Origin: Octopus sinensis
Lineage: Eukaryota
Direction of reading: 5' to 3'
Assembly (NCBI RefSeq): GCF_006345805.1
Contig: NC_043001.1
Span: forward strand, 48,422,001-48,486,000
Length of the DNA stretch: 64,000 bases
Both the position numbers and the translations under genes were made by a program. Under the pieces are notes generated by a model, which did no database searches, had not been told where the DNA came from, and was given only the letters and a program-made list of their open reading frames with translations. Numbering within the stretch: the first letter of the stretch is position 1; each line of letters begins with the position of its first letter. Positions 241 through 53,078 of this stretch are shown here, piece by piece.

Positions 241-629
241 TCACTTTTATACTGGACATGGAGCACACCGTGCGCCTGTACAGGCAATAACGATTTGAGG
301 AAGGGAATACACTAATGTACAACACAAATATTTCATCACTATAAACAATTTATCTGTGCAGGTTATTCAGCAATAGCGTTCAGCTAGAAATGGCAGAATC
401 GTTTTTGTCGAACACGAAGGGTTACCAAGAGTTAATGTTGTCTTTCACCTCGCTGCATTAATAATTCAAAATTTAATTAACATTCCCGAGTTGTCACCCT
501 TTTGCTTTGACTAGATTTGATAAACGTCAGTCATTGAGCTGATGTTTCCGTCTCCTCATTGCGAAGATAATTTTACCTGATTGAAATTTGTTAACATTCT
601 CTCATCTATTATGCTTCATGTACATAAGG

Positions 630-848
630 AGACGAGCTGGCAGAATCGTTAGCTCGACAGGCTAGATGCTTAGCTGCATTTCGTCCGTCTTTACGTTCTA
701 AGTTCAAATGTTCAAATTCCTCCAAGGTCGACTTTGCCTTTCATCCCTCCGAATCCGATAAAATAAGTACCAATTGAGTTCTTCGTATCGACGTAATTGA
801 CTTACCCGCTCTCCCGAAATTGCTTGCCTTGTGCCAAAATCTGAAATC
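630..848 (+). mobile_element. tRNA-derived SINE (family A)
   Basis: Head gagctggcagaatcgttagc, B-box-like gttcaaattcc and body aggtcgactttgcctttcatcc, repeated many times in the window. Confidence 0.8.
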
Positions 849-972
849 ATTATGTTTCTTGCAGATATTATCTCCCAGGTAATCACCCCCACCAAACACA
901 CATCCGTGAACATAATTTGTCCTGAACGGACGTCTCAACCAGACTAATGTATATTTCATCGCTGTAAAATTT

Positions 973-989
973 CGTTGGTTTCAAGTACC
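973..989. repeat. Left copy of 17-bp target-site duplication cgttggtttcaagtacc
   Basis: Identical to 18458-18474; the two bracket the split SINE, the Tx1 LINE and the array. Confidence 0.9.
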
Positions 990-1172
990 TATTTCTTTAT
1001 TACCCACAAGGGGCTAAACACAGAGGGGACAAACAAGGACAGACATAGGTATTAAGTCGATTACATCGACCCCAGTGCGTAACTGGTACTTAATATATCT
1101 ACCCCGAAAGGATGAAAGGCAAAATCGACCTCGGCGGAATTTGAACTCACAACGTAACGCAGACGAAATACG
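990..1172 (-). mobile_element. Body and Tx1-like tail of a family A SINE whose head lies at 18434-18457
   Basis: Minus strand reads gtatttcgtctgcgttacgttgtgagttcaaattccgccgaggtcga...gccccttgtgggtaataaagaaata, collinear with the intact copies starting at 21168 and 50486. Confidence 0.9.
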
Positions 1173-1418
1173 AATTTCTTTATTGCCCACCGGGGGCCAA
1201 ACATAGATATGGACAGTACAACTGATGGGATCAGTGAATCGATATGATTTTACATAAATGTGACATCAAAAATAAAATACAATACATAAAAATCGAATGG
1301 AATACACAGTACAAAAACAAAAGAAATGAAGCGATGATCAAGTTACGCTCCGATCCCACAAGCCCCGATCTACCGCTGATACCTTTTTATTTTCTCTTTT
1401 TTTTTTCCTCGTATATTT

Positions 1419-4400
1419 TCACACGGTTCCTTGCACGCACAACACTCGTGCAACATACTTCCATCTCTTTTGGAACGTACACTCTGACAGACACCTCTTC
1501 TCCAGCCACAGTTTCCTTTTCAAATGAAAAGAAAAAAAGGATCGTAAATTGTCACCAGAGATAAAGTTGCCTGTCTTAATTCCTTATATCCTAGTATTCC
1601 ATACAGCCTCTTTTGCTATTGCTACAACCGTGAGAAAACAATTCTTACCTTCGTTCGTTAGAACTCCCGGTGGGTCAATTTTTATAATTGACTCAGTCGA
1701 CAGCCGTACTCTTCCTTCGCCGGACAACAGATGTTCAGCATAAGCCCACATTTCAGTTATCTCCGGACACTGAACAATAGCGTGAGGGACGGTTTCCCTG
1801 TCCCCACCGCATCTTGGACAGGTCGGCGACTGACGTTTACCATGTCTTGCGAGCTTATCCCAAACGGGCAAGGCACCTCTGTAGCATTGCCAGGTTAAGG
1901 ACTTTTGGAAGTTGTCCAACGTTCTCAACCCGAATGTACGATGAAACAAGCTGTCCAGTTGAATAAATCCGAGACCTAGAGTCGACCCCAGGCCATCGTC
2001 GCATTCAGACTCTACCAACCCACTATATAAAATCCGTGTGGAACCCCCACCGCTGGCGTTGCCCGAGCGCCGGAACAGCAAGAGGGCCTTACGGCACTCT
2101 TTATGCCACTCACTCGACCTCGGTCTACGAGAACACCAGGCTTCCTGTTCGCAAAAACTCTTGAACTCAGGGAACATTTGTCTGGCCAGCGGAGACCACA
2201 CCCCTTCACTATCCAGGAGAATCCAGAGGTGCCTCAACCTCAACGCATGTCTGCGCATCATTAACCAAGGCATCCCTAAACCTCCATTTAAAGGCTTTTG
2301 ACAGCAGACAGAGCGTTTCACAAGTGGCGACCTGCCCTTCCACAAAAAGCGAAAGAGCTGTCTCTCCAACCTGATCAACCACGAATCCGGACAGGGCACG
2401 ACAGTCAGGCGGTAGGTAATGACCGATGCGATAAACACATTGGCCACTTCCGCCCTCCCTTTCAGGGATAGCCACCGCCAAGACCAAGTCTTGACTACTG
2501 CAGCCACCCTGCTCAATACTCCGTCCAGTTCTTCTCTATCTGGAGGCCTGGTCCAAACCAGACTCCCAGCAACTTAACCGGTCCCTCCGTCCAGCGCCTA
2601 ACAACACTGTCTGAAGGCATCGACTTGCCAACCCAGGTGCCGAGCTGCAAGCCGACCGACTTTTCCCGGTTAATCTTTGCTCCTGCTACCTCCTCGTAAG
2701 CCTCAATAGTCTTACCTACTTCACGTAGGCGTACCACTGTGGTTACACTGATAGTGATATCATCCGCGAAAGCCGTAACAAACTCCTCTAGTCCTGGTTC
2801 TCTCGGGATGCCACTCAACCTTTGCAGTAATGGCTCGAGAGCCATCACATACAAAAGTGGTGAAAGCGGACATCCTTGACGAACCGAGCGTCTGATGCAG
2901 AACGGCTTCGAAAGGAAACCGTTCACCCGAACTATCGAGTCAATGTTGTGGTACAAAGCGATAAACCACCTGAGGAAGCCAAGGCCCAGGCCAAACCGCG
3001 CAAGTACAGTCGCTAGGTATCGATGGTCAACCCTATCAAAAGCTTTAGACTGGTCCAAATGCACCAAAGCCCCACCTTTGCCAGATTTATTACCAAACCT
3101 CTCTATGGTATAGCGAATAAGATGGAGGGTATCCTGAATGGTTCTGCCTGGGATGGCACATGTCTGTGCCTCCCCGACTATACCATTCGCGACACGCGCC
3201 AACCTTTTTGCTAGAACCTTGGCCAAAATCTTCACTTCTGCGTTTAACAGAGTGATGGGCCTGAAATTCTCTAGAACGTCCCCCTTGTCCGGGTCCTTTC
3301 TGACCAACGTCACTACTCCCCGGCGCACAGATCTGGGGATAAACCCATTCTGTTTCCAGTTCGCGTACACGTCAGTCAGTAGTTGCCCGAACAAGTCTGG
3401 CATACATTTATACAGCTCGTACGGAAGACCATCAAGTCCCGGTGACTTACCCGCTTTACAATCGGCCAAAGCCTCCATCACCTCCTCAAGTGTGATTGGC
3501 CCTTCGCAAGACTCCGCATCCGACCCCGAGAGGCACGGCAGCCCGGTAAGAAAGTCCTCGAGGGCTCTCCCACCACCAGGACCGCCGTCACCCCCGAACA
3601 GCTGGGCGAAGTACTCCCGAAAGACCTCACACATTTTCTCGGGTTCGTTTATCAAGACACCATTTTGATTCGTCAAAGACCGAATAGAGGAACTATTTCC
3701 TTGCCGAGCTTCCACCACTCGGGCCCATCCAGCGGCTTTGATTCCTTCACTTCCCATTGCACGTAACTTAGCTCTGGTAATACTTCCCATGTGGTGGGCT
3801 TCAAGATGCTGGTTTAACTCCAGTCTTTTCACCCTCGCTTGGTCTGTATTACCAGTCCTCCAGGCTTCTTCTAGTTCCTTAACTAGACCATCTCCTATTT
3901 TACGTCCCTTCTTAGCTAAACTTATGCTAAACCTAATAGACTCATATTTGATGGCTCTTTTTAGGGCGTACCACCATTTGTTATTAATGATGGTACCTGT
4001 TAATGCCCTCTGTATTAACATCTTGATCCGCTTTCTGTACTCCTCAATCGCCAAAAGGGACGTATTGAGTTTCCAGTAGCCAGATCCCTGTCTATGCAAC
4101 TTATCTACCGTCAGTTTACAGGTAACCATCTTGTGGTCACTGTAGCTGACTAGAAAAAACTGTGGACACTCAACTATGGACTTATCTTTTTCTCTAATTA
4201 AAATCCTATCTAGATATGTTCTGGTAGACCCGTCACTATTTGACCACGTCCACTGTGGAGTGTTCGGGTGCTCCAACCTATATGGATCTGCTAGCTGAAA
4301 TTGACTTAGCAGATCCCGAAAGCCTGTGTTACATTTTCTGTTCATGTTCGAGTTTGAGCCAACACAATCTGTGTGTGCTGCACATATTGTATTAGAGTCT

Positions 4401-4818
4401 CCTAACACTACTAGTGAATGCGACGTGGCTAGGAACTTTCCTAGGCCACGAAAATATTCAGTTTGCGGGCCAATAATGTTTGGTGCATAAATAGCGACCA
4501 GCCTGATTGTCTTGCCACAACTGAATGTCAAGTCGAGAACGACCAGCCTGCCTTCTGGGTCAGAAAAAACCAACTTTTTCTCGGCTACCCGGTTTCTTTT
4601 TAGTAGGACCAACACCCCACCCCCACCTCCGCCCGACTCGGAGAAACGTATTTCTCGTAGCCGTTCAGGAGGGGGAGCAGATCTCTTGGCCCCTTCACCC
4701 GGGTTTCCGTTGCAACAATTACATCCAAATTTCTCGACCTGATGTCATTCAGAAAGCGTCCTTGCTTCCAGCTTGACAACAGGCCATGAACATTTAAACA
4801 ACCAATGTGAATAGCCAT
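1419..4818 (-). pseudogene. Tx1 ORF2: APE endonuclease + reverse transcriptase + C-terminal zinc finger, disrupted
   Basis: Motifs GCLNVHGL, VLGDSN, LDRIL, SDH (APE); KSPGLDG, FRPITLLN, LDQSKAFDRV, RQGCPLSP, FADD (RT); CPRC..ETVPH..C. Frameshifts near 4610 and 2515 and a premature TAA at 1584-1586; the frame then continues to a TGA at 1419-1421. Confidence 0.92.
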
Positions 4819-6168
4819 CACTTACCTGTTTAATTAGGATTGTCCGGTGGAGGGGGACCCTCCACCTTTTTTTATCCAGGGTCGGAGGTGGACGGTCTTG
4901 GGAAATAGATTTGTCAAAATCCCGTCTCACCACCGACACAGAATTATCAGGTGGAGGGGGAATCTCCACCTTTTCCTTTTCTCGCGGGATCGGAGCTGGT
5001 AATCCATGAAATATCGACTTGTTAAAATCTAATCTCAATGAAGATACAGTCTTTCTGTACTTATTTTGTAGAATTCTATAAGTCTTATTTGAGACTTCAT
5101 ATATGTCGTAATTGATAAATTCCTCTGAAAGGTTATCAATTTTTTTACAGTCTTTATGAGTTGAATGTCTCTCATGAGCTCAGTATCTTTAGTGTATACG
5201 GCTATTATGTTTTTCTTCTTTTTCTCTTCTGGCAGTCTTTTTTGGTCGTTGTTCTGTAGTAGTCGCCGCTCTCGGCTGGGTTGCTGGTTGTATTTTTCTT
5301 TTGTTTGTGTTTTTTTTTCTCATCTGTTTCTTCTTTATCTTCTTCCTCTTTGTCTTTTTTCTCCTCTTCCTCCTCTTCTTCATTTTCCTTGCAGTTCCTT
5401 CGAATGTGGCCTAATTGACCACATAAAAAACATCGAGGTTTTCGGCCCTCAACAAACACCACGAGGTTCTCCTCCCCTACCTCAATTGTCTCAGGAATTG
5501 TTTGAATTATTTTAGGGTCCGCTTGAATGAGAAGATTAATTGTTTTACCATCCCAGCGTGGGTTTTCCGTAGCGGTAGCCTGGAGGAGAGTAATTTTTTC
5601 TACCTCTTTGATTAGGACTGCCGCCAACAACCACATAGGTTCGACCTCTGGCGGGACCCTTGTAATTTTTATTCGCGACGTCCTCATCCCCATATAATAT
5701 GGTATTAACTCTACGTCGTTCGTTTTCAACGTTTCCACTGAGTTCTTGTGTGCTATTTCTTTATTGGTGAACCTTACTTCCACCGTTCCGAATTTTTTTC
5801 CTCTTCTCAGAAATACTACGTCGCCCAATATTGGCTTTAAGCACTTTTCTATTTTCTCTTCTGACATTCTTTCAATTTTTCTATTTTGTAGACAATATGT
5901 TTTGAAAATTATTGTTTTTTGCTTTTCTTCCTGTAATAACTTTTGCGGAGGTTCAATTTTCACACTGTTGTCATTTATTTCCATCATTTTGCTGTATTTC
6001 ATAATTTCGCTTTTATTCGTCGACAGTATCTGGGTTCCACCCCCAGCAGCCAACGCAAATTTTTTTCCATTTTTTGGTTCTATCTGGATGCTAGGCACAT
6101 CAATTATTCTCTTCGACACAATGCCTTTGTTCTCTGGCAAAGTCGGAAACTCTTCTGGTGAAAGTTCT
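4819..6168 (-). pseudogene. Tx1 ORF1 (gag-like, CCHC knuckle), N-terminally truncated and frameshifted
   Basis: ORF 5205..6140 has CFLCGQLGHIRRNC and the blocks FLRRGKKFGTVEVRF and VFVEGRKPRC, homologous to the array ORF; Lys/Glu/Pro-rich tail continues in other frames. Confidence 0.85.
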
Positions 6169-6317
6169 TATTTCTTTATTACCCACTAGGGGCGACACAG
6201 AAAGGGACACTAAGAAACATGGGGACATATAACATTATAATTAAACTTTATGAACATGAATTGTTAAACGAAAAAATGATTAAATGAAAGCGATACCAAC
6301 GGCCCCGTCCGTCAGCA

Positions 6318-7732
6318 TCACTTACCTGTCCTTTGTTTTTCATAGTCACTTGAATGTTCCTTGCCAATACGAACAAATTCCATATCCATTCTTACTCCGA
6401 AATACTCATCCATATTTTCCACGAATTCATCGCTCATTCTTATATCTTTCACCTCCCAATTCTCGCATTCACACATCACCATAAAGTCACCTATGTTCTT
6501 CTTTTCAATCACAGCATACCTAGTCTCACCAACATCATACCATTTATACTCTTCCATTAGACTTTTAACTTCTTTCTGTTCAGTCATAGTACAAATGTAC
6601 GGCCTGATATCGATTTCAATCTCTTGTGTGTGTGTATTCTTTTTTTTCTTTTGTTTTCTTGTTGGGGGGGAGCGGGTGGGTTCAATGTCTGCATGGATAG
6701 GGTGGGACTCAGAGGGCGTGGGTGGTTTTGGGGTGGATTGGAGTTCCATATTATTTTCTTTTCCACGTATTCTTCTCTTCCTCTTACTTCCAGCTTCCTT
6801 CCATTTCTGTGTATTCTCTTCCTCTGTTTCCTTCTCCTCTGGTTTCTGCTTCTCTCTCTCTGGTTCGGGATCCATTTCTTTCCCTGGGGGAGGGCAGAAG
6901 GCTCTTATGTGACCCCTCAGGCCACACTTGTAACAACGTGGAGCCCTGCCCTCCACCCACACTCTCATGATCACTTCTCCCAGTCTGATGCTTTCCGTCA
7001 GGTCCACCAGTACCTCGGTCTCTGCCTGTACGTTCAGCTCCACTGTTACGCCTCTCCAGCCCTCGGACTTAACCGAGGCATGGAGAATATCCACTTCGTC
7101 CTCGTGGCCGCTGATCACAGCCGCCACAATCCATTCTGCCTCCACGTTTGGTGGCACTCCCTCCACCCTTATTCGTGTAATCCTCCTGTTTAAATACGTA
7201 GGTAACAGTGTTACCTTTTCCGACTTCACCGCCTTCGCTGCCATCTTCCTCGCTGCAGATTCACTTTTAAAATGCACAACTACGGTCCCATACTTGGATC
7301 CTCGAGTCAGAAAATTTATTTCCTCCTCAGTTCTTCGCAGGGCTTCCTCTATCCATTCCATGGTTACAACTTCTACCCTCTTCCTTTCGTTTGCGAACAC
7401 CCTGTAAAAATGGTCCTCTTATCATACCATTCTTTTCTCCTGGGTGTCGGTGATAGTTCCACCTCACCGCTTTCCTTTTTCATGTGTTTCTGGTAACTTG
7501 GTAGTTTGGCCAAGTCGACCCCTTTCTCTTCCGCCTTCTTGGTTACACCGGCATAAGTATAACTCAGCTTCTTTTCCAAATTCCTCGCTGCCATTTCTAG
7601 CTCCTTCTCAGACGTAGGCGAGTCTGATAAAGACTCGAAAACTCCAGCCTTTTCCTCCATCAGCTTCACTGCAATTGCCTGTTCCAGTTCCTCATCTGTC
7701 GTGGACAAGTCTGTTAGAGACTCATAGTCCAT
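6318..7732 (-). CDS. Array unit 1 ORF: Tx1-type ORF1/gag-like protein, about 471 aa once one frameshift near 7407 is corrected
   Basis: MDYESL...CYKCGLRGHIRAFC...RTGK*; 1415 nt with one base missing relative to the other copies. Confidence 0.8.
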
Positions 7733-8075
7733 TTCCTTCTGTCTGACAGACCGAAAACGGCCGCCAAAACAGAAAAAAGTTTAACGCGCTGAACGAGCGA
7801 AACGCGAAACCGCGTCAACGCCGTTCAGAATTTCCACAACAACAACAACGCTTTTTGTTCTTTTTTACCGAATTTTCAGGAGCCGAAAAAAACACAACCG
7901 ACGTCAAACGAAGTGCTAACGTTTCTTATTTCTTTATTACCCACTAGGGGCGACACAGAAAGGGACACTAAGAAACATGGGGACATATAACATTATAATT
8001 AAACTTTATGAACATGAATTGTTAAACGAAAAAATGATTAAATGAAAGCGATACCAACGGCCCCGTCCGTCAGCA

Positions 8076-9490
8076 TCACTTACCTGTCCTTTGTTTTTCA
8101 TAGTCACTTGAATGTTCTTTGCCAATACGAACAAATTCCATATCCATTCTTACTCCGAAATACTCATCCATATTTTCCACGAATTCATCACTCATTCTTA
8201 TATCTTTCACCTCCCAATTCTCCCTTTCACACCTCACCATAAAGTCACCTATGTTCTTCTTTTCAATCACAGCATACCTAGTCTCACCAACATCATACCA
8301 TTTATACTCTTCCATTAGACTTTTAACTTCTTTCTGTTCAGTCATAGTACAAATGTACGGCCTGATATCGATTTCAATCTCTTGTGTGTTGTATTCTTTT
8401 TTTTTTTTTTGTTTCTTGTTGGGGGGGAGCGGGTGGGTTCAATGTCTGCATGGATAGGGTGGGACTCAGAGGGCGTGGGTGGTTTTGGGGTGGATTGGAG
8501 TTCCATATTATTTTCTTTTCCACGTATTCTTCTCTTCCTCTTACTTCCAGCTTCCTTCCATTTCTGTGTATTCTCTTCCTCTGTTTCCTTCTCCTCTGGT
8601 TTCTGCTTCTCTCTCTCTGGTTCGGGATCCATTTCTTTCCCTGGGGGAGGGCAGAAGGCTCTTATGTGACCCCTCAGGCCACACTTGTAACAACGTGGAG
8701 CCCTGCCCTCCACCCACACTCTCATGATCACTTCTCCCAGTCTGATGCTTTCCGTCAGGTCCACCAGTACCTCGGTCTCTGCCTGTACGTTCAGCTCCAC
8801 TGTTACGCCTCTCCAGCCCTCGGACTTAACCGAGGCATGGAGAATATCCACTTCGTCCTCGTGGCCGCTGATCACAGCCGCCACAATCCATTCTGCCTCC
8901 ACGTTTGGTGGCACTCCCTCCACCCTTATTCGTGTAATCCTCCTGTTTAAATACGTAGGTAACAGTGTTACCTTTTCCGACTTCACCGCCTTCGCTGCCA
9001 TCTTCCTCGCTGCAGATTCACTTTTAAAATGCACAACTACGGTCCCATACTTGGATCCTCGAGTCAGAAAATTTATTTCCTCCTCAGTTCTTCGCAGGGC
9101 TTCCTCTATCCATTCCATGGTTACAACTTCTACCCTCTTCCTTTCGTTTGCGAACACCCTGTAAACAATGGTCCTCTTATCATACCATTCTTTTCTCCTG
9201 GGTGTCGGTGATAGTTCCACCTCACCGCTTTCCTTTTTCATGTGTTTCTGGTAACTTGGTAGCTTGGCCAAGTCGACCCCTTTCTCTTCCGCCTTCTTGG
9301 TTACACCGGCATAAGTATAACTCAGCTTCTTTTCCAAATTCCTCGCTGCCATTTCTAGCTCCTTCTCAGACGTAGGCGAGTCTGATAAAGACTCGAAAAC
9401 TCCAGCCTTTTCCTCCATCAGCTTCATTGCAATTGCCTGTTCCAGTTCCTCATCTGTCGTGGACAAGTCTGTTAGAGACTCATAGTCCAT
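8076..9490 (-). CDS. Array unit 2 ORF1-like protein (frameshift in T-rich tract near 8400)
   Basis: 382-aa and 89-aa ORF pieces join to give the consensus protein. Confidence 0.8.
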
Positions 9491-9832
9491 TTCCTTCTGT
9501 CTGACAGACCGAAAACGGCCGCCAAAACAGAAAAAAGTTTAACGCGCTGAACGAGCGAAACGCGAAACCGCGTCAACGCCGTTCAGAATTTCCACACAAC
9601 AACAACGCTTTTTGTTCTTTTTTACCGAATTTTCAGGAGCCGAAAAAAACACAACCGACGTCAAACGAAGTGCTAACGTTTCTTATTTCTTTATTACCCA
9701 CTAGGGGCGACACAGAAAGGGACACTAAGAAACATGGGGACATATAACATTATAATTAAACTTTATGAACATGAATTGTTAAACGAAAAAATGATTAAAT
9801 GAAAGCGATACCAACGGCCCCGTCCGTCAGCA

Positions 9833-11244
9833 TCACTTACCTGTCCTTTGTTTTTCATAGTCACTTGAATGTTCCTTGCCAATACGAACAATTCCATATC
9901 CATTCTTACTCCGAAATACTCATCCATATTTTCCACGAATTCATCGCTCATTCTTATATCTTTCACCTCCCAATTCTTCCTTTCACACCTCCCCATAAAC
10001 TCACCTATGTTCTTCTTTTCAATCACAGCATACCTAGTCTCACCAACATCATACCATTTATACTCTTCCATTAGACTTTTAACTTCTTTCTGTTCAGTCA
10101 TAGTACAAATGTACATCCTGATATCGTTTTCAATCTCTTGTGTGTGTGTATTCTTTTTTTTCTTTTGTTTTCTTGTTGGGGGGGAGCGGGTGGGTTCAAT
10201 GTCTGCATGGGTAGGGTGGGACTCAGAGGGCGTGGGTGGTTTTGGGGTGGATTGGAGTTCCATATTGTTTTCTTTTCCACGTATTCTTCTCTTCCTCTTA
10301 CTTCCAGCTTCCTTCCATTTCTGTGTATTCTCTTCCTCTGTTTCCTTCTCCTCTGGTTTCTGCTTCTCTCTCTCTGGTTCGGGATCCATTTCTTTCCCTG
10401 GGGGAGGGCAGAAGGCTCTTATGTGACCCCTCAGGCCACACTTGTAACAACGTGGAGCCCTGCCCTCCACCCACACTCTCATGATCACTTCTCCCAGTCT
10501 GATGCTTTCCGTCAGGTCCACCAGTACCTCGGTCTCTGCCTGTACGTTCAGCTCCACTGTTACGCCTCTCCAGCCCTCGGACTTAACCGAGGCATGGAGA
10601 ATATCCACTTCGTCCTCGTGGCCGCTGATCACAGCCGCCACAATCCATTCTGCCTCCACGTTTGGTGGCACTCCCTCCACCCTTATTCGTGTAATCCTCC
10701 TGTTTAAATACGTAGGTAACAGTGTTACCTTTTCCGACTTCACCGCCTTCGCCGCCATCTTCCTCGCTGCAGATTCACTTTTAAATGCACAACTACGGTC
10801 CCATACTTGGATCCTCGAGTCAGAAAATTTATTTCCTCCTCAGTTCTTCGCAGGGCTTCCTCTATCCATTCCATGGTTACAACTTCTACCCTCTTCCTTT
10901 CGTTTGCGAAACCCTGTAAACAATGGTCCTCTTATCATACCATTCTTTTCTCCTGGGTGTCGGTGATAGTTCCACCTCACCGCTTTCCTTTTTCATGTGT
11001 TCTGGTAACTTGGTAGTTTGGCCAAGTCGACCCCTTTCTCTTCCGCCTTCTTGGTTACACCGGCATAAGTATAACTCAGCTTCTTTTCCAAATTCCTCGC
11101 TGCCATTTCTAGCTCCTTCTCAGACGTAGGCGAGTCTGATAAAGACTCGAAAACTCCAGCCTTTTCCTCCATCAGCTTCATTGCAATTGCCTGTTCCAGT
11201 TCCTCATCTGTCGTGGACAAGTCTGTTAGAGACTCATAGTCCAT
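9833..11244 (-). pseudogene. Array unit 3 ORF1-like, several 1-bp indels
   Basis: 83-aa and 331-aa fragments of the consensus protein. Confidence 0.75.
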
Positions 11245-11587
11245 TTCCTTCTGTCTGACAGACCGAAAACGGCCGCCAAAACAGAAAAAAGTTTAACGCG
11301 CTGAACGAGCGAAACGCGAAACCGCGTCAACGCCGTTCAGAATTTCCACAACAACAACAACGCTTTTTGTTCTTTTTTACCGAATTTTCAGGAGCCGAAA
11401 AAAACACAACCGACGTCAAACGAAGTGCTAACGTTTCTTATTTCTTTATTACCCACTAGGGGCGACACAGAAAGGGACACTAAGAAACATGGGGACATAT
11501 AACATTATAATTAAACTTTATGAACATGAATTGTTAAACGAAAAAATGATTAAATGAAAGCGATACCAACGGCCCCGTCCGTCAGCA

Positions 11588-12996
11588 TCACTTACCTGTC
11601 CTTTGTTTTTCATAGTCACTTGAATGTTCCTTGCCAATACGAACAAATTCCATATCCATTCTTACTCCGAAATACTCATCCATATTTTCCACGAATTCAT
11701 CGCTCATTCTTATATCTTTCACCTCCCAATTCTCGCATTCACACATCACCATAAAGTCACCTATGTTCTTCTTTTCAATCACAGCATACCTAGTCTCACC
11801 AACATCATACCATTTATACTCTTCCATTAGACTTTTAACTTCTTTCTGTTCAGTCATAGTACAAATGTACGGCCTGATATCGATTTCAATCTCTTGTGTG
11901 TGTGTATTCTTTTTTTCTTTTGTTTTCTTGTTGGGGGGGAGCGGGTGGGTTCAATGTCTGCATGGATAGGGTGGGACTCAGAGGGCGTGGGTGGTTTTGG
12001 GGTGGATTGGAGTTCCATATTATTTTCTTTTCCACGTATTCTTCTCTTCCTCTTACTTCCAGCTTCCTTCCATTTCTGTGTATTCTCTTCCTCTGTTTCC
12101 TTCTCCTCTGGTTTCTGCTTCTCTCTCTCTGGTTCGGGATCCATTTCTTTCCCTGGGGGAGGGCAGAAGGCTCTTATGTGACCCCTCAGGCCACACTTGT
12201 AACAACGTGGAGCCCTGCCCTCCACCCACACTCTCATGATCACTTCTCCCAGTCTGATGCTTTCCGTCAGGTCCACCAGCACCTCGGTCTCCGCCTGCAC
12301 GTTCAGCTCCACTGTTACGCCTCTCCAGCCCTCGGACTCAACCGAGGCATGGAGAATATCCACTTCGTCCTCGTGGCCGCTGATCACAGCCGCCACAATC
12401 CATTCTGCCTCCACGCTTGGTGGCACTCCCTCCACCCTCATTCGTGCAATCCTCCTGTTCAAATACGTAGGCAACAGTGTTACCTTTTCCGACTTCACCG
12501 CCCTCGCCGCCATCTTCCTCGCTGCAGATTCACTTTCAAAGTGCACAACTACGGTCCCGTACTTGGATCCTCGAGTCAGAAAATTTATTTCCTCCTCAGT
12601 TCCTCGCAGGGCCTCCTCCATCCATTCCATGGATACAACTTCTACCCTCTTCCCTTCGTTTGCGCACACCCTGCAAACAATGGTCCTCCCATCATACCAT
12701 TCCTCTCTCCTGGGTGTCGGTGATAGCTCCACCTCACCGCCTTCCCCTTTCATGTGCTTCTGGCAACTTGGTAGCTTGGCCAAGTCGACCCCTTTCTCCT
12801 CCGCCTTCTTGGTCACACCGGCACAAGTATAACTCAGCCTCCTTTCCAATTTCCCTGCTGCCATTTCCAGCTCCTTCTCAGACAAGTCTGATAAAGACTC
12901 GAAAACTCCAGCCCCTTCCTCCATCAGCCTCACTGCAATTGCCTGTTCCAGTTCCCCATCCGTCGTGGACAAGTCTGTTAGAGACTCATAGTCCAT
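11588..12996 (-). pseudogene. Array unit 4 ORF1-like, A>G hypermutated
   Basis: 380-aa and 89-aa pieces with many K>R, K>E, E>G, Y>C changes. Confidence 0.8.
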
Positions 12997-13339
12997 TTCC
13001 TTCTGTCTGACAGACCGAAAACGGCCGCCAAAACAGAAAAAAGTTTAACGCGCTGAACGAGCGAAACGCGAAACCGCGTCAACGCCGTTCAGAATTTCCA
13101 CAACAACAACAACGCTTTTTGTTCTTTTTTACCGAATTTTCAGGAGCCGAAAAAAACACAACCGACGTCAAACGAAGTGCTAACGTTTCTTATTTCTTTA
13201 TTACCCACTAGGGGCGACACAGAAAGGGACACTAAGAAACATGGGGACATATAACATTATAATTAAACTTTATGAACATGAATTGTTAAACGAAAAAATG
13301 ATTAAATGAAAGCGATACCAACGGCCCCGTCCGTCAGCA

Positions 13340-14749
13340 TCACTTACCTGTCCTTTGTTTTTCATAGTCACTTGAATGTTCTTTGCCAATACGAATAAAT
13401 TCCATATCCATTCTTACTCCGAAATACTCATCCATATTTTCCACGAATTCATCGCTCATTCTTATATCTTTCACCTCCCAATTCTCGCATTCACACTCCC
13501 ATAAAGTCACCTATGTTCTTCTTTTCAATCACAGCATACCTAGTCTCACCAACATCATACCATTTATACTCTTCCATTAGACTTTTAACTCTTCTGTTCA
13601 GTCATAGTACAAATGTACGGCCTGATATCGATTTCAATCTCTTGTGTGTGTGTATTCTTTTTTTTCTTTTGTTTTCTTGTTGGGGGGGAGCGGGTGGGTT
13701 CAATGTCTGCATGGATAGGGTGGGACTCAGAGGGCGTGGGTGGTTTTGGGGTGGATTGGAGTTCCATATTATTTTCTTTTCCACGTATTCTTCTCTTCCT
13801 CTTACTTCCAGCTTCCTTCCATTTCTGTGTATTCTCTTCCTCTGTTTCCTTCTCCTCTGGTTTCTGCTTCTCTCTCTCTGGTTCGGGATCCATTTCTTTC
13901 CCTGGGGGAGGGCAGAAGGCTCTTATGTGACCCCTCAGGCCACACTTGTAACAACGTGGAGCCCTGCCCTCCACCCACACTCTCATGATCACTTCTCCCA
14001 GTCTGATGCTTTCCGTCAGGTCCACCAGTACCTCGGTCTCTGCCTGTACGTTCAGCTCCACTGTTACGCCTCTCCAGCCCTCGGACTTAACCGAGGCATG
14101 GAGAATATCCACTTCGTCCTCGTGGCCGCTGATCACAGCCGCCACAATCCATTCTGCCTCCACGTTTGGTGGCACTCCCTCCACCCTTATTCGTGTAATC
14201 CTCCTGTTTAAATACGTAGGTAACAGTGTTACCTTTTCCGACTTCACCGCCTTCGCTGCCATCTTCCTCGCTGCAGATTCACTTTTAAAATGCACAACTA
14301 CGGTCCCATACTTGGATCCTCGAGTCAGAAAATTTATTTCCTCCTCAGTTCTTCGCAGGGCTTCCTCTATCCATTCCATGGTTACAACTTCTACCCTCTT
14401 CCTTTCGTTTGCGAACACCCTGTAAACAATGGTCCTCTTATCATACCATTCTTTTCTCCTGGGTGTCGGTGATAGTTCCACCTCACCGCTTTCCTTTTTC
14501 ATGTGTTTCTGGTAACTTGGTAGCTTGGCCAAGTCGACCCCTTCTCTTCCGCCTTCTTGGTTACACCGGCATAAGTATAACTCAGCTTCTTTTCCAATTC
14601 CTCGCTGCCATTTCTAGCTCCTTCTCAGACGTAGGCGAGTCTGATAAAGACTCGAAAACTCCAGCCTTTTCCTCCATCAGCTTCATTGCAATTGCCTGTT
14701 CCAGTTCCTCATCTGTCGTGGACAAGTCTGTTAGAGACTCATAGTCCAT
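13340..14749 (-). pseudogene. Array unit 5 ORF1-like, several 1-bp indels
   Basis: 315-aa central fragment matches the consensus protein. Confidence 0.75.
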
Positions 14750-15090
14750 TTCCTTCTGTCTGACAGACCGAAAACGGCCGCCAAAACAGAAAAAAGTTTA
14801 ACGCGCTGAACGAGCGAAACGCGAAACCGCGTCAACGCCGTTCAGAATTTCCACAACAACAACAACGCTTTTTGTTCTTTTTTACCGAATTTTCAGGAGC
14901 CGAAAAAAACACAACCGACGTCAAACGAAGTGCTAACGTTTCTTATTTCTTTATTACCCACTAGGGGCGACACAGAAAGGGACACTAAGAAACATGGGGA
15001 CATAACATTATAATTAAACTTTATGAACATGAATTGTTAAACGAAAAAATGATTAAATGAAAGCGATACCAACGGCCCCGTCCGTCAGCA

Positions 15091-16503
15091 TCACTTACCT
15101 GTCCTTTGTTTTTCATAGTCACTTGAATGTTCCTTGCCAATACGAACAAATTCCATATCCATTCTTACTCCGAAATACTCATCCATATTTTCCACGAATT
15201 CATCGCTCATTCTTATATCTTTCACCTCCCAATTCTTCCTTTCACACCTCCCCATAAACTCACCTATGTTCTTCTTTTCAATCACAGCATACCTAGTCTC
15301 ACCAACATCATACCATTTATACTCTTCCATTAGACTTTTAACTTCTTTCTGTTCAGTCATAGTACAAATGTACATCCTGATATCGTTTTCAATCTCTTGT
15401 GTGTGTGTATTCTTTTTTTCTTTTGTTTTCTTGTTGGGGGGGAGCGGGTGGGTTCAATGTCTGCATGGGTAGGGTGGGACTCAGAGGGCGTGGGTGGGTT
15501 TGGGGTGGATTGGAGTTCCATATTGTTTCTTTTCCACGTATTCTTCTCTTCCTCTTACTTCCAGCTTCCTTCCATTTCTGTGTATTCTCTTCCTCTGTTT
15601 CCTTCTCCTCTGGTTTCTGCTTCTCTCTCTCTGGTTCGGGATCCATTTCTTTCCCTGGGGGAGGGCAGAAGGCTCTTATGTGACCCCTCAGGCCACACTT
15701 GTAACAACGTGGAGCCCTGCCCTCCACCCACACTCTCATGATCACTTCTCCCAGTCTGATGCTTTCCGTCAGGTCCACCAGTACCTCGGTCTCTGCCTGT
15801 ACGTTCAGCTCCACTGTTACGCCTCTCCAGCCCTCGGACTTAACCGAGGCATGGAGAATATCCACTTCGTCCTCGTGGCCGCTGATCACAGCCGCCACAA
15901 TCCATTCTGCCTCCACGTTTGGTGGCACTCCCTCCACCTTATTCGTGTAATCCTCCTGTTTAAATACGTAGGTAACAGTGTTACCTTTTCCGACTTCACC
16001 GCCTTCGCCGCCATCTTCCTCGCTGCAGATTCACTTTTAAAATGCACAACTACGGTCCCATACTTGGATCCTCGAGTCAGAAAATTTATTTCCTCCTCAG
16101 TTCTTCGCAGGGCTTCCTCTATCCATTCCATGGTTACAACTTCTACCCTCTTCCTTTCGTTTGCGAACACCCTGTAAACAATGGTCCTCTTATCATACCA
16201 TTCTTTTCTCCTGGGTGTCGGTGATAGTTCCACCTCACCGCTTTCCTTTTTCATGTGTTTCTGGTAACTTGGTAGCTTGGCCAAGTCGACCCCTTTCTCT
16301 TCCGCCTTCTTGGTTACACCGGCATAAGTATAACTCAGCTTCTTTTCCAAATTCCTCGCTGCCATTTCTAGCTCCTTCTCAGACGTAGGCGAGTCTGATA
16401 AAGACTCGAAAACTCCAGCCTTTTCCTCCATCAGCTTCACTGCAATTGCCTGTTCCAGTTCCTCATCTGTCGTGGACAAGTCTGTTAGAGACTCATAGTC
16501 CAT
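15091..16503 (-). pseudogene. Array unit 6 ORF1-like, several 1-bp indels
   Basis: 205-aa, 182-aa and 94-aa fragments. Confidence 0.75.
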
Positions 16504-16843
16504 TTCCTTCTGTCTGACAGACCGAAAACGGCCGCCAAAACAGAAAAAAGTTTAACGCGCTGAACGAGCGAAACGCGAAACCGCGTCAACGCCGTTCAGA
16601 ATTTCCACAACAACAACAACGTTTGTTGTTTTTTTACCGAATTTTCAGGAGCCGAAAAAAACACAACCGACGTCAAACGAAGTGCTAACGTTCTTATTTC
16701 TTTATTACCCACTAGGGGCGACACAGAAAGGGACACTAAGAAACATGGGGACATATAACATTATAATTAAACTTTATGAACATGAATTGTTAAACGAAAA
16801 AATGATTAAATGAAAGCGATACCAACGGCCCCGTCCGTCAGCA

Positions 16844-18253
16844 TCACTTACCTGTCCTTTGTTTTTCATAGTCACTTGAATGTTCCTTGCCAATACGAAC
16901 AAATTCCATATCCATTCTTACTCCGAAATACTCATCCATTTTTCCACGAATTCATCGCTCATTCTTATATCTTTCACCTCCCAATTCTCGCATTCACATC
17001 ACCATAAAGTCACCTATGTTCTTCTTTTCAATCACAGCATACCTAGTCTCACCAACATCATACCATTTATACTCTTCCATTAGACTTTTAACTTCTTTCT
17101 GTTCAGTCATAGTACAAATGTACGGCCTGATATCGATTTCAATCTCTTGTGTGTGTGTATTCTTTTTTTTCTTGTTTTCTTGTTGGGGGGGAGCGGGTGG
17201 GTTCAATGTCTGCATGGATAGGGTGGGACTCAGAGGCGTGGGTGGTTTTGGGGTGGATTGGAGTTCCATATTATTTTCTTTTCCACGTATTCTTCTCTTC
17301 CTCTTACTTCCAGCTTCCTTCCATTTCTGTGTATTCTCTTCCTCTGTTTCCTTCTCCTCTGGTTTCTGCTTCTCTCTCTCTGGTTCGGGATCCATTTCTT
17401 TCCCTGGGGGAGGGCAGAAGGCTCTTATGTGACCCCTCAGGCCACACTTGTAACAACGTGGAGCCCTGCCCTCCACCCACACTCTCATGATCACTTCTCC
17501 CAGTCTGATGCTTTCCGTCAGGTCCACCAGTACCTCGGTCTCTGCCTGTACGTTCAGCTCCACTGCTACGCCTCTCCAGCCCTCGGACCCAACCGAGGCA
17601 TGGAGAATATCCACCTCGTCCTCGTGGCCGCCGATCACAGCCGCCACAATCCATTCCGCCTCCACGCCTGGTGGCACTCCCTCCACCCCCACTCGTGCAA
17701 TCCTCCTGTTCAAATACGCAGGCAACAGCGCTACCCCCCCCGACCTCACCGCCCTCGCCGCCATCCCCCTCGCTGCAGATTCACCTTTAAAGTGCACAAC
17801 CACGGTCCCGCACTTGGATCCTCGAGTCAGAAAATTCACTTCCTCCTCAGTTCCTCGCAGGGCCTCCTCCATCCATTCCATGGACACAACCTCCACCCTC
17901 CTCCCTTCGCTCGCGCACACCCTGCAAACAATGGTCCTCCCATCACACCATTCCCCTCTCCTGGGTGTCGGTGACAGTTCCACCTCACCGCCCTCCCCCC
18001 TCATGTGCTTCTGGCAACTTGGCAGCTTGGCCAAGTCGACCCCCCTCTCCTCCGCCTTCCTGGCTACACCGGCACAAGTATAACTCAGCTTCCCCTCCAA
18101 ACTCCTCGCTGCCATTTCCAGCTCCTTCTCAGACGTAGGCGAGTCTGATAAAGACTCGAAAACTCCAGCCTTTTCCTCCATCAGCTTCATTGCAATTGCC
18201 TGTTCCAGTTCCTCATCTGTCGTGGACAAGTCTGTTAGAGACTCATAGTCCAT
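16844..18253 (-). pseudogene. Array unit 7 ORF1-like, heavily A>G hypermutated
   Basis: 419-aa ORF with K>R/G, E>G, Y>C, T>A, I>V changes concentrated in about 17566-18119. Confidence 0.8.
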
Positions 18254-18299
18254 TTCCTTCTGTCTGACAGACCGAAAACGGCCGCCAAAACAGAAAAAA

Positions 18300-18433
18300 G
18301 TTTAACGCGCTGAACGAGCGAAACGCGAAACCGCGTCAACGCCGTTCAGAATTTCCACAACAACAACAACGCTTTTTGTTCTTTTTTACCGAATTTTCAG
18401 GAGCCGAAAAAAACACAACCGACGTCAAACGAA
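18300..18433 (-). promoter_or_regulatory. CpG-rich 5' UTR of the array unit (candidate internal promoter; present in all seven units)
   Basis: Dense CpGs (cggcgttgacgcggtttcgcgtttcgctcg) and a CRE-like tgacgtcg upstream of the ATG. Promoter function is inferred from L1-group biology. Confidence 0.35.
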
Positions 18434-18457
18434 GTGCTAACGTTTCTGCCATCTCGC
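18434..18457 (-). mobile_element. 5' head (A-box region) of the split family A SINE
   Basis: Minus strand gcgagatggcagaaacgttagcac versus intact gcgagctggcagaaacgttagcac at about 50491. Confidence 0.85.
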
Positions 18458-18474
18458 CGTTGGTTTCAAGTACC
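18458..18474. repeat. Right copy of the 17-bp TSD
   Basis: Identical to 973-989. Confidence 0.9.
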
Positions 18475-21167: not shown

Positions 21168-21755
21168 AGCTGGAGCTGGCAGAAACGTTAGCACGCCGAG
21201 CGAAATGCGTAGCCGTGTTTCGTCTGCCGTTACGTTCTGAGTTCAAATTCCGCCGAGGTCGACTTTGCCTTTCAACCTTTCGGGGTCAATAAATTCAGTA
21301 CCAGTTATGCACTGGGGTCGATGTAATCGACTTAATCCGTTTGTCTGTCCTTGTTTGTCCCTCTGTGTTTAACCCCTTGTGGGTAGTAAAATAGTAAAGA
21401 AATAGAAATAGGTATTTCGTCTGCCGCTACGTTCTGAGTTCAAATTCCGCCGAGGTCGACTTTGCGTTTCATCCTTTCGGGGTCGATTAGATAAGTACCA
21501 GTTACGCACTGGGGTCGATATAATCGACTTAATCCGTTTGTTTATCCTTGTTTATCCCCTGTGTGTTTAGCCCCTTGTGGGTAGTAAAGAAATAGGTATT
21601 TCGTCTGTCTTTACGTTCTGAGTTCAAATTCCGCCGAGGTCGACTTTACCTTTAGGAGTCGATAAATTAAGTACCAGTTGCGTACTGATTTCTATCTAAT
21701 CGACTGGCGCTCTCTCGAAAAATTTCGGGCCTTCTGCTTAGAGTAGAAAAGAATT
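21168..21755 (+). mobile_element. Family A SINE trimer
   Basis: One full unit plus two headless units joined at gaaata|ggtatttcgtctg (21410/21411 and 21594/21595). Confidence 0.88.
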
Positions 21756-25664: not shown

Positions 25665-25880
25665 ATGGCTTCAAACTTTGGCTCAACATCAATAAATTAA
25701 GAGTGAAATAAATCGATTACATCTGCCACCAGTGTTCAACTGGTACTTATTTTATCGACTCCGAAAGGACAAAAAGCAAAGTTAAGCTCGGCAGAATTTG
25801 AAGCCAAAAGATAAAGAGCCGAAAGAAATGCTGTTGAGCATTTTGTCCACCGTGCTAAAGATTCTGCCACTCACCACCTT
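25665..25880 (-). mobile_element. SINE family A, degenerate
   Basis: tggtacttattttatcgac...gctaaagattctgccactcacc. Confidence 0.7.
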
Positions 25881-45002: not shown

Positions 45003-45215
45003 TGGCTTCAAATTTCGGCGCAAGGTCAGGAGTTTCAAGGAATGGGAGAAATCAATTACATCGACCTCAGTGCTCAACTTGTGCTATTTTATCGTCCCCG
45101 AAAGGATTAAAAACAAAATCGACCCCAGCAGCATTTGAACTCAGAATGTAAAGACCGACTAAATGCCGCTAGGCATCATGCTCGGCGTGCTAACGATTCT
45201 GCCAGCTCACCGCCT
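45003..45215 (-). mobile_element. SINE family A
   Basis: Ends cgtgctaacgattctgccagctcaccgcc. Confidence 0.8.
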
Positions 45216-45299
45216 TATGAGCCTATGGATCGGGAAGGATCTTTCGTCCTCTTTTTTAGAATTCGTGTATGTATTTTGGTGTGAATGTAAATTATGTTA

Positions 45300-50269: not shown

Positions 50270-51420
50270 CGTGATGTGAAGACAATTTGAAAGCTCGCTA
50301 CCCAATTAAATTTCGTGTTAGACTGGGCAAAGACGCTACAGAAAATTATGAAATACTCCAGACTACCGATGAATTAACTTGTATGAGCTGAGCATGTTTT
50401 ACGCTGACACGAGTTGTCCGACAAGGCAATCCGCTGGGAAGGTCGTGGTGATCCCCTTTCTAGACAGTAAGTGTATCACTACGGAAGGCGGCGAGCTGGC
50501 AGAAACGTTAGCACGCCGGGCGAAATGCGTAGCCGTATTTCGTCTACCGTTACGTTCTGAGTTCAAATTCCGCCGAGGTCGACTTTGCCTTTCATCCTTT
50601 CGGGGTCAATAAATTAAGTACTAGTTACGCACTAGGGTCGATATAATCGACTTAATCCGTTTGTCTGTCCTTGTTTGTCCTCTATGTGTTTAGCCCCTTG
50701 TGTGTAGTAAAGAAATAGGTATTTCGTCTGCCGCTACGTTCTGAGTTCAAATTCCGCCGAGGTCGACTTTGCCTTTCATCCTTTCGGGGTCGATTAAATA
50801 AGTACCAGTTACGCACTGGGGTCGATATAATCGACTTAATCCGTTTGTCTGTCCTTGTTTGTCTTCTCTGTGTGTAGCCCCTTGTGGGCAGTAAAGAAAT
50901 AAGTAAGGATATCATCTAGATTCACTGGGTTTCCTCTGACCAAATAGTTTAGAAACGGCACTTTGTGAAGATTTTGATTGAGTTCAGGAAGAGATTTCGT
51001 CGAAAAAGGCCAGAGCTCTTCCATTCGGCTTGTTGGCACATGCACCAATACAATGCACCAGACCACAGCTCGATCCTGGTAACCAACTACTTGACTTAGA
51101 AGGGCTCCAAAACTCCCTCACCCTCCCTACAGTCCAGATCTTTCCCCCTTTGACTTTTGGTTGTTCCCCAGGTTGAAAAAGAACTTAAGGGGCAGTTGTT
51201 TTGATGACATTGAGAAGATGAAGGAGGCTGTGACAAGGGTCCTGGACACCTTCACTTCAGAAGACTTCCATGGGGGTCTTCACGAAGTGGCTGGAGTTCT
51301 ACACCAAGTGCACTGAAGCCAGGGGTGCCCAACTTTGATGGAAATTAGAATTTTGTACTTCTTTGAGTGGAATAGATGTCTTTCCTGAAAATGTCTCAAA
51401 ACTTCTGGAGAGCACTTTGT
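50270..51420 (+). mobile_element. Internally deleted mariner transposon remnant interrupted by a SINE dimer
   Basis: IKFRVRLGKDATE near 50305; HQYNAPDH and YSPDLSPFDFWLFPRLKKNLRG at about 51040-51190. Confidence 0.8.
50486..50901 (+). mobile_element. Family A SINE dimer with Tx1-like tails
   Basis: Junction aaagaaata|ggtatttcgtctg at 50717/50718; degenerate TSD agtaag..tatca on both flanks. Confidence 0.88.
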
Positions 51421-52736: not shown

Positions 52737-53078
52737 AGGTGACCGAATCGTTAACCGGCCGGGTAAAATACTTAAAGGCATTTCGTCCGTCATTTCGTTC
52801 TGAGTTCAAATTCCACCGAGGTCGACTTTGTCTTTCATCCCTTTCTGAGTTGATAAGATGTGTACAAGGCAAGCTGACAGAGTCGTTACCGCGCCGGCAA
52901 AATTGCTCGGCGGCATTTCTTCCCACTTTACATTCTTAGTTCAAATACCGCCGTGGTCAATATTGCCTTTCATCCCTTCAGAGCCGATAAAGTAAGTATT
53001 ATTTGAACACTAGGGTCGATGTAAAAGACTTACCCGCTGCCGTGAAACTGCTTGACTTGTGCCAAATCTTTGAAACCA
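52737..53078 (+). mobile_element. Two adjacent degenerate family A SINEs
   Basis: Heads near 52738 and 52868, each with a gttcaaat B box. Confidence 0.7.

What the first reader, a model, noticed from the sequence alone, without database searches (positions are those of the whole stretch)
973..18474. Three-partner retroelement system nested in one SINE: Tx1 LINE, ORF1-only partner array and a tail-sharing SINE
Seen: a 17-bp TSD brackets a family A SINE whose head (18434-18457) and body (990-1172) are 17.3 kb apart, with a Tx1 LINE and seven ORF1-only units between them, all co-oriented. About 20 bp of SINE head (gccgggcgaaatgcgtagc in the intact copy at 50486) is missing. Known: Tx1-clade LINEs are often sequence-specific (Keno in U2 snRNA genes, Dewa in tRNA-array spacers, Kibi/Koshi in microsatellites). 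Inference: the target here is the tRNA-derived head of an abundant SINE that the LINE itself mobilises, so the LINE would spread its own landing pads, and the ORF1-only parasite uses the same pad. I do not know of this being described, but cannot search.
Basis: partly seen in the sequence, partly recalled or inferred. Interest (0 to 1): 0.9.

Follow-up and report, generated by a model that had tools for sequence, protein, structure and literature searches.

The report
Retrotransposons stacking inside a SINE head
A young LINE retrotransposon lands at one exact base inside an abundant short repeat (SINE), and an ORF1-only parasite stacks head-to-tail 33 bases upstream in the same repeat, likely using a different sister LINE, with some copies carrying A-to-G changes that were likely made by RNA editing and written back into the genome.

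Summary
Real, and richer than reported. The 17-bp duplication, split SINE, LINE and seven ORF1-only units are all present. Genome-wide, 130 of 137 exact tails of this LINE (LINE-A) are followed by the hexamer of SINE position 50, and 30 of 30 position-ordered loci sit there; LINEs differ by 0.5%, host SINEs by 10%, so these are independent insertions. The unit does not share that site: it uses position 17 (15 of 21 loci), as does a rarer sister LINE (B1) that shares its 5' end and tail, so B1, not LINE-A, is the likely helper. Units pile up (63 tails, 21 loci) despite 12,673 exact empty sites; locus-specific duplications between units point to repeated insertion at one spot. Two window units carry 40 and 70 sense-strand A-to-G changes with ADAR's neighbour bias, present in read-derived contigs. 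That LINE-A makes its own landing pads is unproven. Sister LINEs about 98% identical in ORF2 hit three different repeats, each carrying a copy of its target at its 5' end. New variant of Tx1-type targeting; Repbase could not be checked.

The parts
973..989 (.). Outer 17-bp target-site duplication of the host SINE (tail side)
   Evidence: identical to 18458-18474
990..1172 (-). Host SINE body and tail, positions 50-233 of the intact copy at 50485-50722
   Evidence: 91% to the intact copy
1173..6168 (-). LINE-A, nt 349-5351 of a 5351-nt L1/Tx1-type element; its tail joins SINE position 50
   Evidence: 99.5% to a full copy; same 3' junction at 130 of 137 exact tails
1419..4818 (-). LINE-A ORF2 (APE endonuclease, RT, zf-RVT), frameshifted in this copy, open (1134 aa) in another natural copy
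4830..6168 (-). LINE-A ORF1 without its start (CCHC knuckle; homologous to the unit's two-RRM core)
6167..7924 (-). Unit 1; its tail joins an internal AG^AA site of LINE-A, with about 385 nt lost
7925..11436 (-). Units 2 and 3 (7925-9681, 9682-11436)
11437..13188 (-). Unit 4, 40 sense A-to-G changes between unit nt 228 and 914
   Evidence: matching read-derived contig
13189..16692 (-). Units 5 and 6 (13189-14941, 14942-16692)
16693..18445 (-). Unit 7, 70 sense A-to-G changes between unit nt 327 and 879
   Evidence: exact read-derived contigs
18434..18458 (-). Host SINE head; 18434-18445 is the 12-mer repeated at all unit junctions (SINE positions 17-28)
18458..18474 (.). Outer 17-bp target-site duplication (head side)

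Best explanation
A SINE inserted here first, LINE-A then inserted at its fixed site (SINE position 50), and seven ORF1-only RNAs were then likely copied in one after another at a second site 33 bases upstream, likely by the reverse transcriptase of sister LINE B1. Shown: both sites, independent LINE-A insertions, the unit's ends matching B1, conserved ORF1, and A-to-G changes in genomic copies. Inferred: target-primed reverse transcription with the helper recognising the shared 3' tail; each element carries a 12-16 nt copy of its target at its 5' end, so each insertion rebuilds a target at its own 5' junction and the next RNA goes in there (some junctions without a duplication may be template jumps). 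The first unit here probably primed at a look-alike AG^AA site inside LINE-A and joined its 5' end at SINE position 17, deleting about 385 nt. Units 4 and 7 were probably copied from separately ADAR-edited RNAs. The unit's ORF1 protein probably packages its own RNA in cis, as proposed for HeT-A and HAL1.
For: LINE-A: 130 of 137 exact tails on target; 30 of 30 position-ordered loci; 39 of 39 top hits have the SINE head upstream, 38 of 39 the body downstream; LINE 0.5% versus SINE 10% pairwise; first duplicated base matches on both sides at 37 of 37 loci, 8 of them the minor letter. Unit: position 17 at 15 of 21 loci. B1 shares about 74 nt of 5' end (86-92%) and a 28-nt identical tail with the unit and sits at position 17 in 4 of 4 full copies, each heading a unit array. 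A locus-specific target variant recurs at all 4 junctions of one array and an 18-nt non-SINE duplication recurs in another. Clear off-site unit junctions read AG^A in 6 of 6. ORF1: two RRMs predicted (pLDDT 84), dN 0.28 versus dS 2.0 between two unit families, four unit families form one clade, 100/100. Editing: 5' G neighbour 2/82, 2/63 and 12/184 against 5' T 15/32, 20/28 and 34/78 in three copies; exact contigs from a DNA-labelled run.
Against: No enzyme or cell assay. B1 is rare (4 full copies seen) and very young (0.14% within), whereas unit families are old, so earlier helpers must have existed. 6 of 21 unit loci are not at position 17, and five further arrays of related units lie at another repeat, three with a different LINE. 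Many junctions carry the unit's own 5' 12-mer or no duplication. Window units pair up with period 3 (2/5, 3/6, 4/7), which fits a DNA-level duplication of part of the array. No laid piece spans the array. No RNA evidence.
Confidence: 0.72

Rival explanations
1. One reading: one LINE (LINE-A) drives everything, mobilising the SINE and the unit into the same pad.
For: All three share a tail motif and orientation; three loci hold units and LINE-A in one SINE (window, C4, C6); 29 of 75 SINE tails are followed by LINE-A's site.
Against: Different sites (50 versus 17); unit ends match B1; no unit tail is followed by position 50 at the 21 loci examined; co-occurrence is 3 of 21 unit loci.
Confidence: 0.08
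2. Arrays grew mainly at the DNA level (unequal crossover or segmental duplication) after one or two insertions, or are partly over-expanded by the assembly.
For: Period-3 likeness in the window; junction types are uniform within several arrays; no laid piece spans the array.
Against: Arrays mix different unit families and LINEs; units 4 and 7 differ by 13 and 43 private A-to-G changes and both patterns exist as separate contigs; junctions change stepwise along arrays.
Confidence: 0.12
3. Arrays are made in one reverse-transcription run, by template jumping between RNAs or by copying a multi-unit read-through transcript headed by B1.
For: B1 is 5'-most in 4 of 4 arrays (about 1 in 540 if order were random; array sizes); junctions without duplication are common; clustering despite 12,673 empty sites.
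Against: Target-specific duplications between units need a fresh nick at each step; SINE-site arrays do not share a unit order.
Confidence: 0.2
4. The helper is another, unseen position-17 LINE, and B1 is a recombinant that picked up the unit's 5' end and rides in the arrays.
For: B1 looks like a B-family body with the unit's first ~75 nt; a 2.1-kb deleted element from another family also sits at position 17; unit ORF1 is only 41% identical to B1 ORF1.
Against: The 28-nt tail identity points to the B family; no other full LINE was seen at position 17 in the loci fetched.
Confidence: 0.2
5. The A-to-G clusters are polishing or sequencing artefacts, or come from a DNA deaminase.
For: The best run may be the assembly's own sample and its DNA label is a guess; the dsRNA substrate is unidentified.
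Against: Exact 199-nt and 127-nt contigs spanning 28 and 11 changes at near single-copy depth; clusters are A-to-G on the sense strand only, none of the other three transition types in 138 elements; ADAR-type 5' bias.
Confidence: 0.07

Closest known systems
Tx1-clade target-specific LINEs: Tx1L in Tx1D, Tx1-Mar in Mariner-N4_AMi, Keno, Kibi/Koshi (Kojima 2015, PMC4494074, passages read)
   Same: APE-RT LINE with fixed insertion into a multicopy sequence, including other transposons; sister families with different targets.
   Different: Target is a tRNA-type SINE head sharing the LINE tail; two sites in one SINE. The passages name DNA transposons, LTR elements, snRNA genes and microsatellites, not SINEs; the target list in Fig. 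3 and supplements was not visible.
SINEU-3 (same paper, passages read)
   Same: Non-autonomous partner with the helper's target preference; tandem copies sandwiching a duplication, read as sequential insertion.
   Different: Here the partner encodes a conserved ORF1 and arrays reach 7-13 units of mixed families.
ORF1-only non-autonomous LINEs HAL1 (L1), HeT-A (Jockey), Ag-Sponge (CR1) (Kojima 2018, PMC5786205 and PMC5753468, passages read)
   Same: ORF1 kept, ORF2 lost, LINE-type ends, dependent on a helper; HeT-A also forms head-to-tail arrays (recalled).
   Different: L1/Tx1-type origin, SINE-head target, ORF1 clade distinct from every helper found; no Tx1 case is named in those passages.
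APOBEC-edited retrotransposon copies (Zaranek 2010, PMC2873906, passages; Knisbacher 2016, PMC4866542, term search only)
   Same: Clustered one-type changes fixed in genomic copies through reverse transcription.
   Different: A-to-G on the sense strand with ADAR context, in a non-LTR element; those papers treat G-to-A DNA editing, and A-to-G only in RNA traces.
Octopus tRNA-derived SINEs OK/OR1/OR2 (Ohshima and Okada 1994; only its citation seen, in PMC4758252)
   Same: Resemblance recalled, not tested; 13 recently active L1-Tx1 families are listed for an octopus (PMC13282606, passages).
   Different: No target specificity is mentioned there ('target' 0 hits).

Membership tests
Tx1 clade (L1 group) | ORF2 with APE endonuclease, RT and C-terminal zinc finger, closest to L1 | tested here: met
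   Pfam; best solved relative human L1 ORF2p, E 1e-51, against 2e-20 for R2
Tx1 clade (L1 group) | ORF1 with RRM domains and CCHC knuckle | tested here: met
   zf-CCHC in LINE-A ORF1; model of the homologous unit core matches tandem-RRM structures; ZCCHC3-like lead
Tx1 clade (L1 group) | Sequence-specific insertion in a multicopy target | tested here: met
Tx1 clade (L1 group) | RT phylogeny inside Tx1 with named references | not testable with these tools
   No named Tx1 protein among 93 homologues or their listed cluster members; Repbase not available
ORF1-only non-autonomous LINE (HAL1/HeT-A type) | One ORF1, no ORF2, LINE-like ends | tested here: met
   471-aa ORF fully open in 6 of 62 copies, none of the 7 window copies; ORF1/ORF2 junction motif kept, then 3' UTR
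ORF1-only non-autonomous LINE (HAL1/HeT-A type) | Purifying selection on ORF1 | tested here: met
   dN/dS about 0.14 over 225 core codons, dS near saturation
ORF1-only non-autonomous LINE (HAL1/HeT-A type) | Mobilised in trans by an identified helper | tested here: inconclusive
   shared ends and site with B1; no assay
tRNA-derived SINE (SINE2) | tRNA-derived head with A and B boxes, LINE-like tail, target-site duplication | tested here: inconclusive
   A/B-box-like motifs, tail and duplication visible; ARAGORN and Rfam call no tRNA; the head folds as one long hairpin, z -3.4
ADAR hyper-editing | Clustered A-to-G on the RNA strand with 5' G depletion | tested here: met
   signature as in PMC2873906
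ADAR hyper-editing | dsRNA substrate and edited transcripts | not testable with these tools
   no RNA holder listed

The most novel reading that the evidence does not exclude
The RNA's own 5' end, not only the endonuclease, programs where these LINEs land. Three sister lineages 1.4-2.1% apart in ORF2 hit three unrelated repeats, each element begins with a copy of its target, one unit landed at a reversed site matching its first nine bases, and 5'-truncated copies are off target. This would be a natural, re-addressable target-primed system in which ORF1-only parasites build ever-longer trains at one SINE and carry ADAR edits into the germline.
Probability: 0.22. Interest if true: 0.92.

Novelty: new variant of a known kind. 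Interest (0 to 1): 0.78.

Why it matters
It extends Tx1-type targeting to a SINE head, a target that itself multiplies and numbers over ten thousand, with two LINE families dividing one 60-nt head. It adds an old ORF1-only lineage of L1/Tx1 type. The B1/B2/B3 trio, with seven variable residues in the endonuclease and three targets, is a ready experiment on whether protein or RNA sets specificity, which bears on site-specific gene-insertion tools. The hypermutated copies suggest RNA editing can become heritable DNA change through retrotransposition, and they tag each unit as a separate RNA template.

Tried and rejected
Composite element (SINE head + LINE + body moving as one): rejected by 0.5% versus 10% divergence and junction covariation. 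LINE-A as the unit's parent by simple deletion: ORF1 34% identical, separate clade. True tRNA or snRNA genes as targets: ARAGORN found none in the window and one unrelated call in 15 loci; Rfam gave only microsatellite noise or nothing. Four non-A-to-G changes shared by units 4 and 7 as proof of descent: they are common variants in 21-29 of the other 60 units. Unit ORF1 homologue search found nothing. The ORF2 search gave no Tx1-named hit. No RNA holder listed. Earlier scan findings: none. Tail folding gave no consistent structure. The first junction table was misaligned and redone; scripts 45 and 78 failed part-way and were rerun. Christensen 2000 was not held. Literature searches (SINE-targeting LINE; ORF1-only; edited genomic copies) listed no description of this system; only listings and the named passages were read, no supplements.
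Full report
Observation. Everything reads on the minus strand. A 17-mer occurs at 973-989 and 18458-18474 and nowhere else in the window. Between them lie SINE positions 50-233 (990-1172), a LINE (1173-6168), seven 1.75-kb units (6167-18445) and the SINE head (18434-18458), numbered on the intact copy at 50485-50722. The LINE has APE, RT, zf-RVT and a CCHC ORF1, and its best solved relative is human L1 ORF2p. The octopus origin and the Tx1 label are recalled or inferred; no named Tx1 reference was available.

LINE-A is site-specific. Its exact 26-nt tail occurs 137 times in the genome, 130 times followed by the hexamer at SINE position 50. All 30 loci taken in positional order sit at that position, including 4 that miss the exact hexamer. 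Among 39 top-scoring other copies (two share flanks and are probably one locus), 39 have the SINE head directly upstream of an intact 5' end and 38 have the body downstream; the last is followed by a diverged LINE-A start. LINE 3' ends differ by 0.5% pairwise, flanking bodies by 10.0% (34 compared, 5 rearranged dropped) and heads by 9.9% (37 compared, 2 dropped), so the SINEs were there first. About 16 nt are repeated at both ends. The first base agrees on both sides at 37 of 37 loci (2 dropped), but only 3 of 23 target variants at positions 7-16 are copied to the 5' side, so most of that copy travels with the element. The cut lies just after the loop of the head's long predicted hairpin.

The unit uses another site. 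Its exact 34-nt tail occurs 63 times, which I group into 21 loci. At 15 of 21 the array sits at SINE position 17, 33 nt upstream of LINE-A's site; one is in a reversed SINE head and five are elsewhere, two of them holding only 5'-truncated copies. Five more arrays of related units with other 5' ends lie at a different repeat, three of them ending in another LINE; their shared flank may mean they are not independent. The unit is therefore SINE-preferring, not SINE-exclusive.

Helper. A sister LINE, B1 (77% to LINE-A), starts with the unit's first ~74 nt and ends with the same 28 nt; LINE-A differs at 3 of the last 24. All 4 full B1 copies found sit at position 17, each at the 5' end of a unit array. 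B1 is the best candidate, but it is rare and young, and it may itself be a recombinant. The unit ORF1 (471 aa, fully open in 6 of 62 copies) is predicted to hold two RRMs before a CCHC motif. It is 41% identical to B1 ORF1 and 34% to LINE-A ORF1, shows dN 0.28 versus dS 2.0 between two unit families, and four unit families form one clade apart from all LINEs sampled. This is an old ORF1-only lineage, not a fresh deletion.

Array building. There are 12,673 exact empty position-17 sites, yet 13 of 21 loci hold several elements. In one array a rare target variant recurs at all four junctions; in another an 18-nt non-SINE duplication recurs; elsewhere each 5'-most junction repeats the one below it. 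That fits repeated nicking of the rebuilt 5' junction. Other junctions lack a duplication and could be template jumps, and the window's period-3 likeness leaves room for some DNA duplication. At 6168 the unit tail meets LINE-A nt 349 at an AG^AA site, like the other clear off-site junctions (AG^A in 6 of 6); SINE 29-65 and LINE-A 1-348 are lost, whereas two other loci keep them between unit and LINE.

Does LINE-A spread its pads? Of 75 distinct SINE tails in the fetched DNA (a sample enriched for these loci), 29 run into position 50/51, 8 into position 17 and 38 elsewhere, 18 of those beginning AGGT. This suggests LINE-A-like machinery, but dimers may be copied as dimers, the SINE tail is nearer the B family, and the SINEs are older. 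Unproven.

Editing. Units 4 and 7 carry 40 and 70 sense A-to-G changes against unit 1, sharing 27; a third copy, found by searching with the edited stretch, carries 142 against 26 other transitions. A 5' G is avoided (2/82, 2/63, 12/184) and 5' T or A favoured, the ADAR signature described in PMC2873906. Clusters of five or more in 100 nt occur in 4 of 76 and 1 of 12 units, 0 of 14 B and 0 of 36 LINE-A copies, and never for the other three transitions. In run X1 (labelled DNA by guess, possibly the assembly's own sample) contigs match unit 7 exactly over 199 and 127 nt (28 and 11 changes) at depth 38 and 65 against 52 for the flank, and another has 8 differences where unit 4 differs at 8, the 6 listed ones matching. 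In X13, X2 and X4 a flank contig leaves the stretch exactly where an empty SINE would, for 231-242 letters not shown; this hints at an empty allele.

Target switching. B1, B2 and B3 differ by 1.4-2.1% in ORF2 and at seven of the first 240 residues, one in the presumed specificity loop (location recalled from L1). B2 (6 of 6 fetched) targets a ~560-bp tandem repeat with 189 exact empty sites, and B3 (4 fetched, mixed junctions) a third repeat. Protein change and RNA 5' homology are confounded here and need an assay.

Known and new. Tx1 families targeting other transposons, tandem partners with duplications, and ORF1-only LINEs are each described. Nine literature searches listed no SINE-head-specific LINE, Tx1-type ORF1-only family or ADAR-marked genomic LINE copy; subscription papers, supplements, figures and Repbase were not visible, so prior annotation is possible. 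Verdict: real, a new variant of a known kind, interest 0.78.

Noticed in passing
window 50485-50905 and 21173-21705: SINE dimer and trimer whose extra bodies start at position 51, LINE-A's site.
   Followed up: partly
L061-L099: All 39 top LINE-A copies keep their 5' end and none of 30 position-ordered copies is truncated within 1.5 kb; unusual for an L1-type element.
   Followed up: partly
window 4816-4828 and 6316-6328; B1, B2, C: An AGGTAAG motif followed by an overlapping stop-start (TGATG/TAATG) marks the ORF1/ORF2 border in LINEs and is kept in the ORF1-only unit; looks like a splice donor plus translational coupling.
   Followed up: no
L154-L157, L163, L164, L206-L211: B2 lineage targets a ~560-bp tandem repeat (189 exact empty sites); no Rfam or tRNA match.
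   Followed up: partly
L272-L279, L284, L285: Mixed arrays of up to four ORF1-only families at a second repeat, three ending in the same unit plus LINE-C.
   Followed up: partly
L103 (C8600:30550-32700) and L205: A 2.1-kb internally deleted element is the 3'-most member at position 17 in two arrays; its tail matches the SINE tail best.
   Followed up: partly
L272-L273 (C10182, about 44.5-46.2 kb): Unit with 142 A-to-G changes along nearly its whole length, 5'-most in its array.
   Followed up: yes
L161: Chimeric LINE: a different ORF1 start, then a unit-like ORF1 half (80%), then B-family ORF2.
   Followed up: no
L065 and L069: Same flanks on two contigs; probably one locus assembled twice.
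   Followed up: yes
window 626-804, 25709-25880, 45049-45216, 52737-53032: More diverged (74-84%) relatives of the SINE.
   Followed up: no
L196: About 2 kb of a 5-nt-based satellite downstream of a B-type LINE.
   Followed up: no
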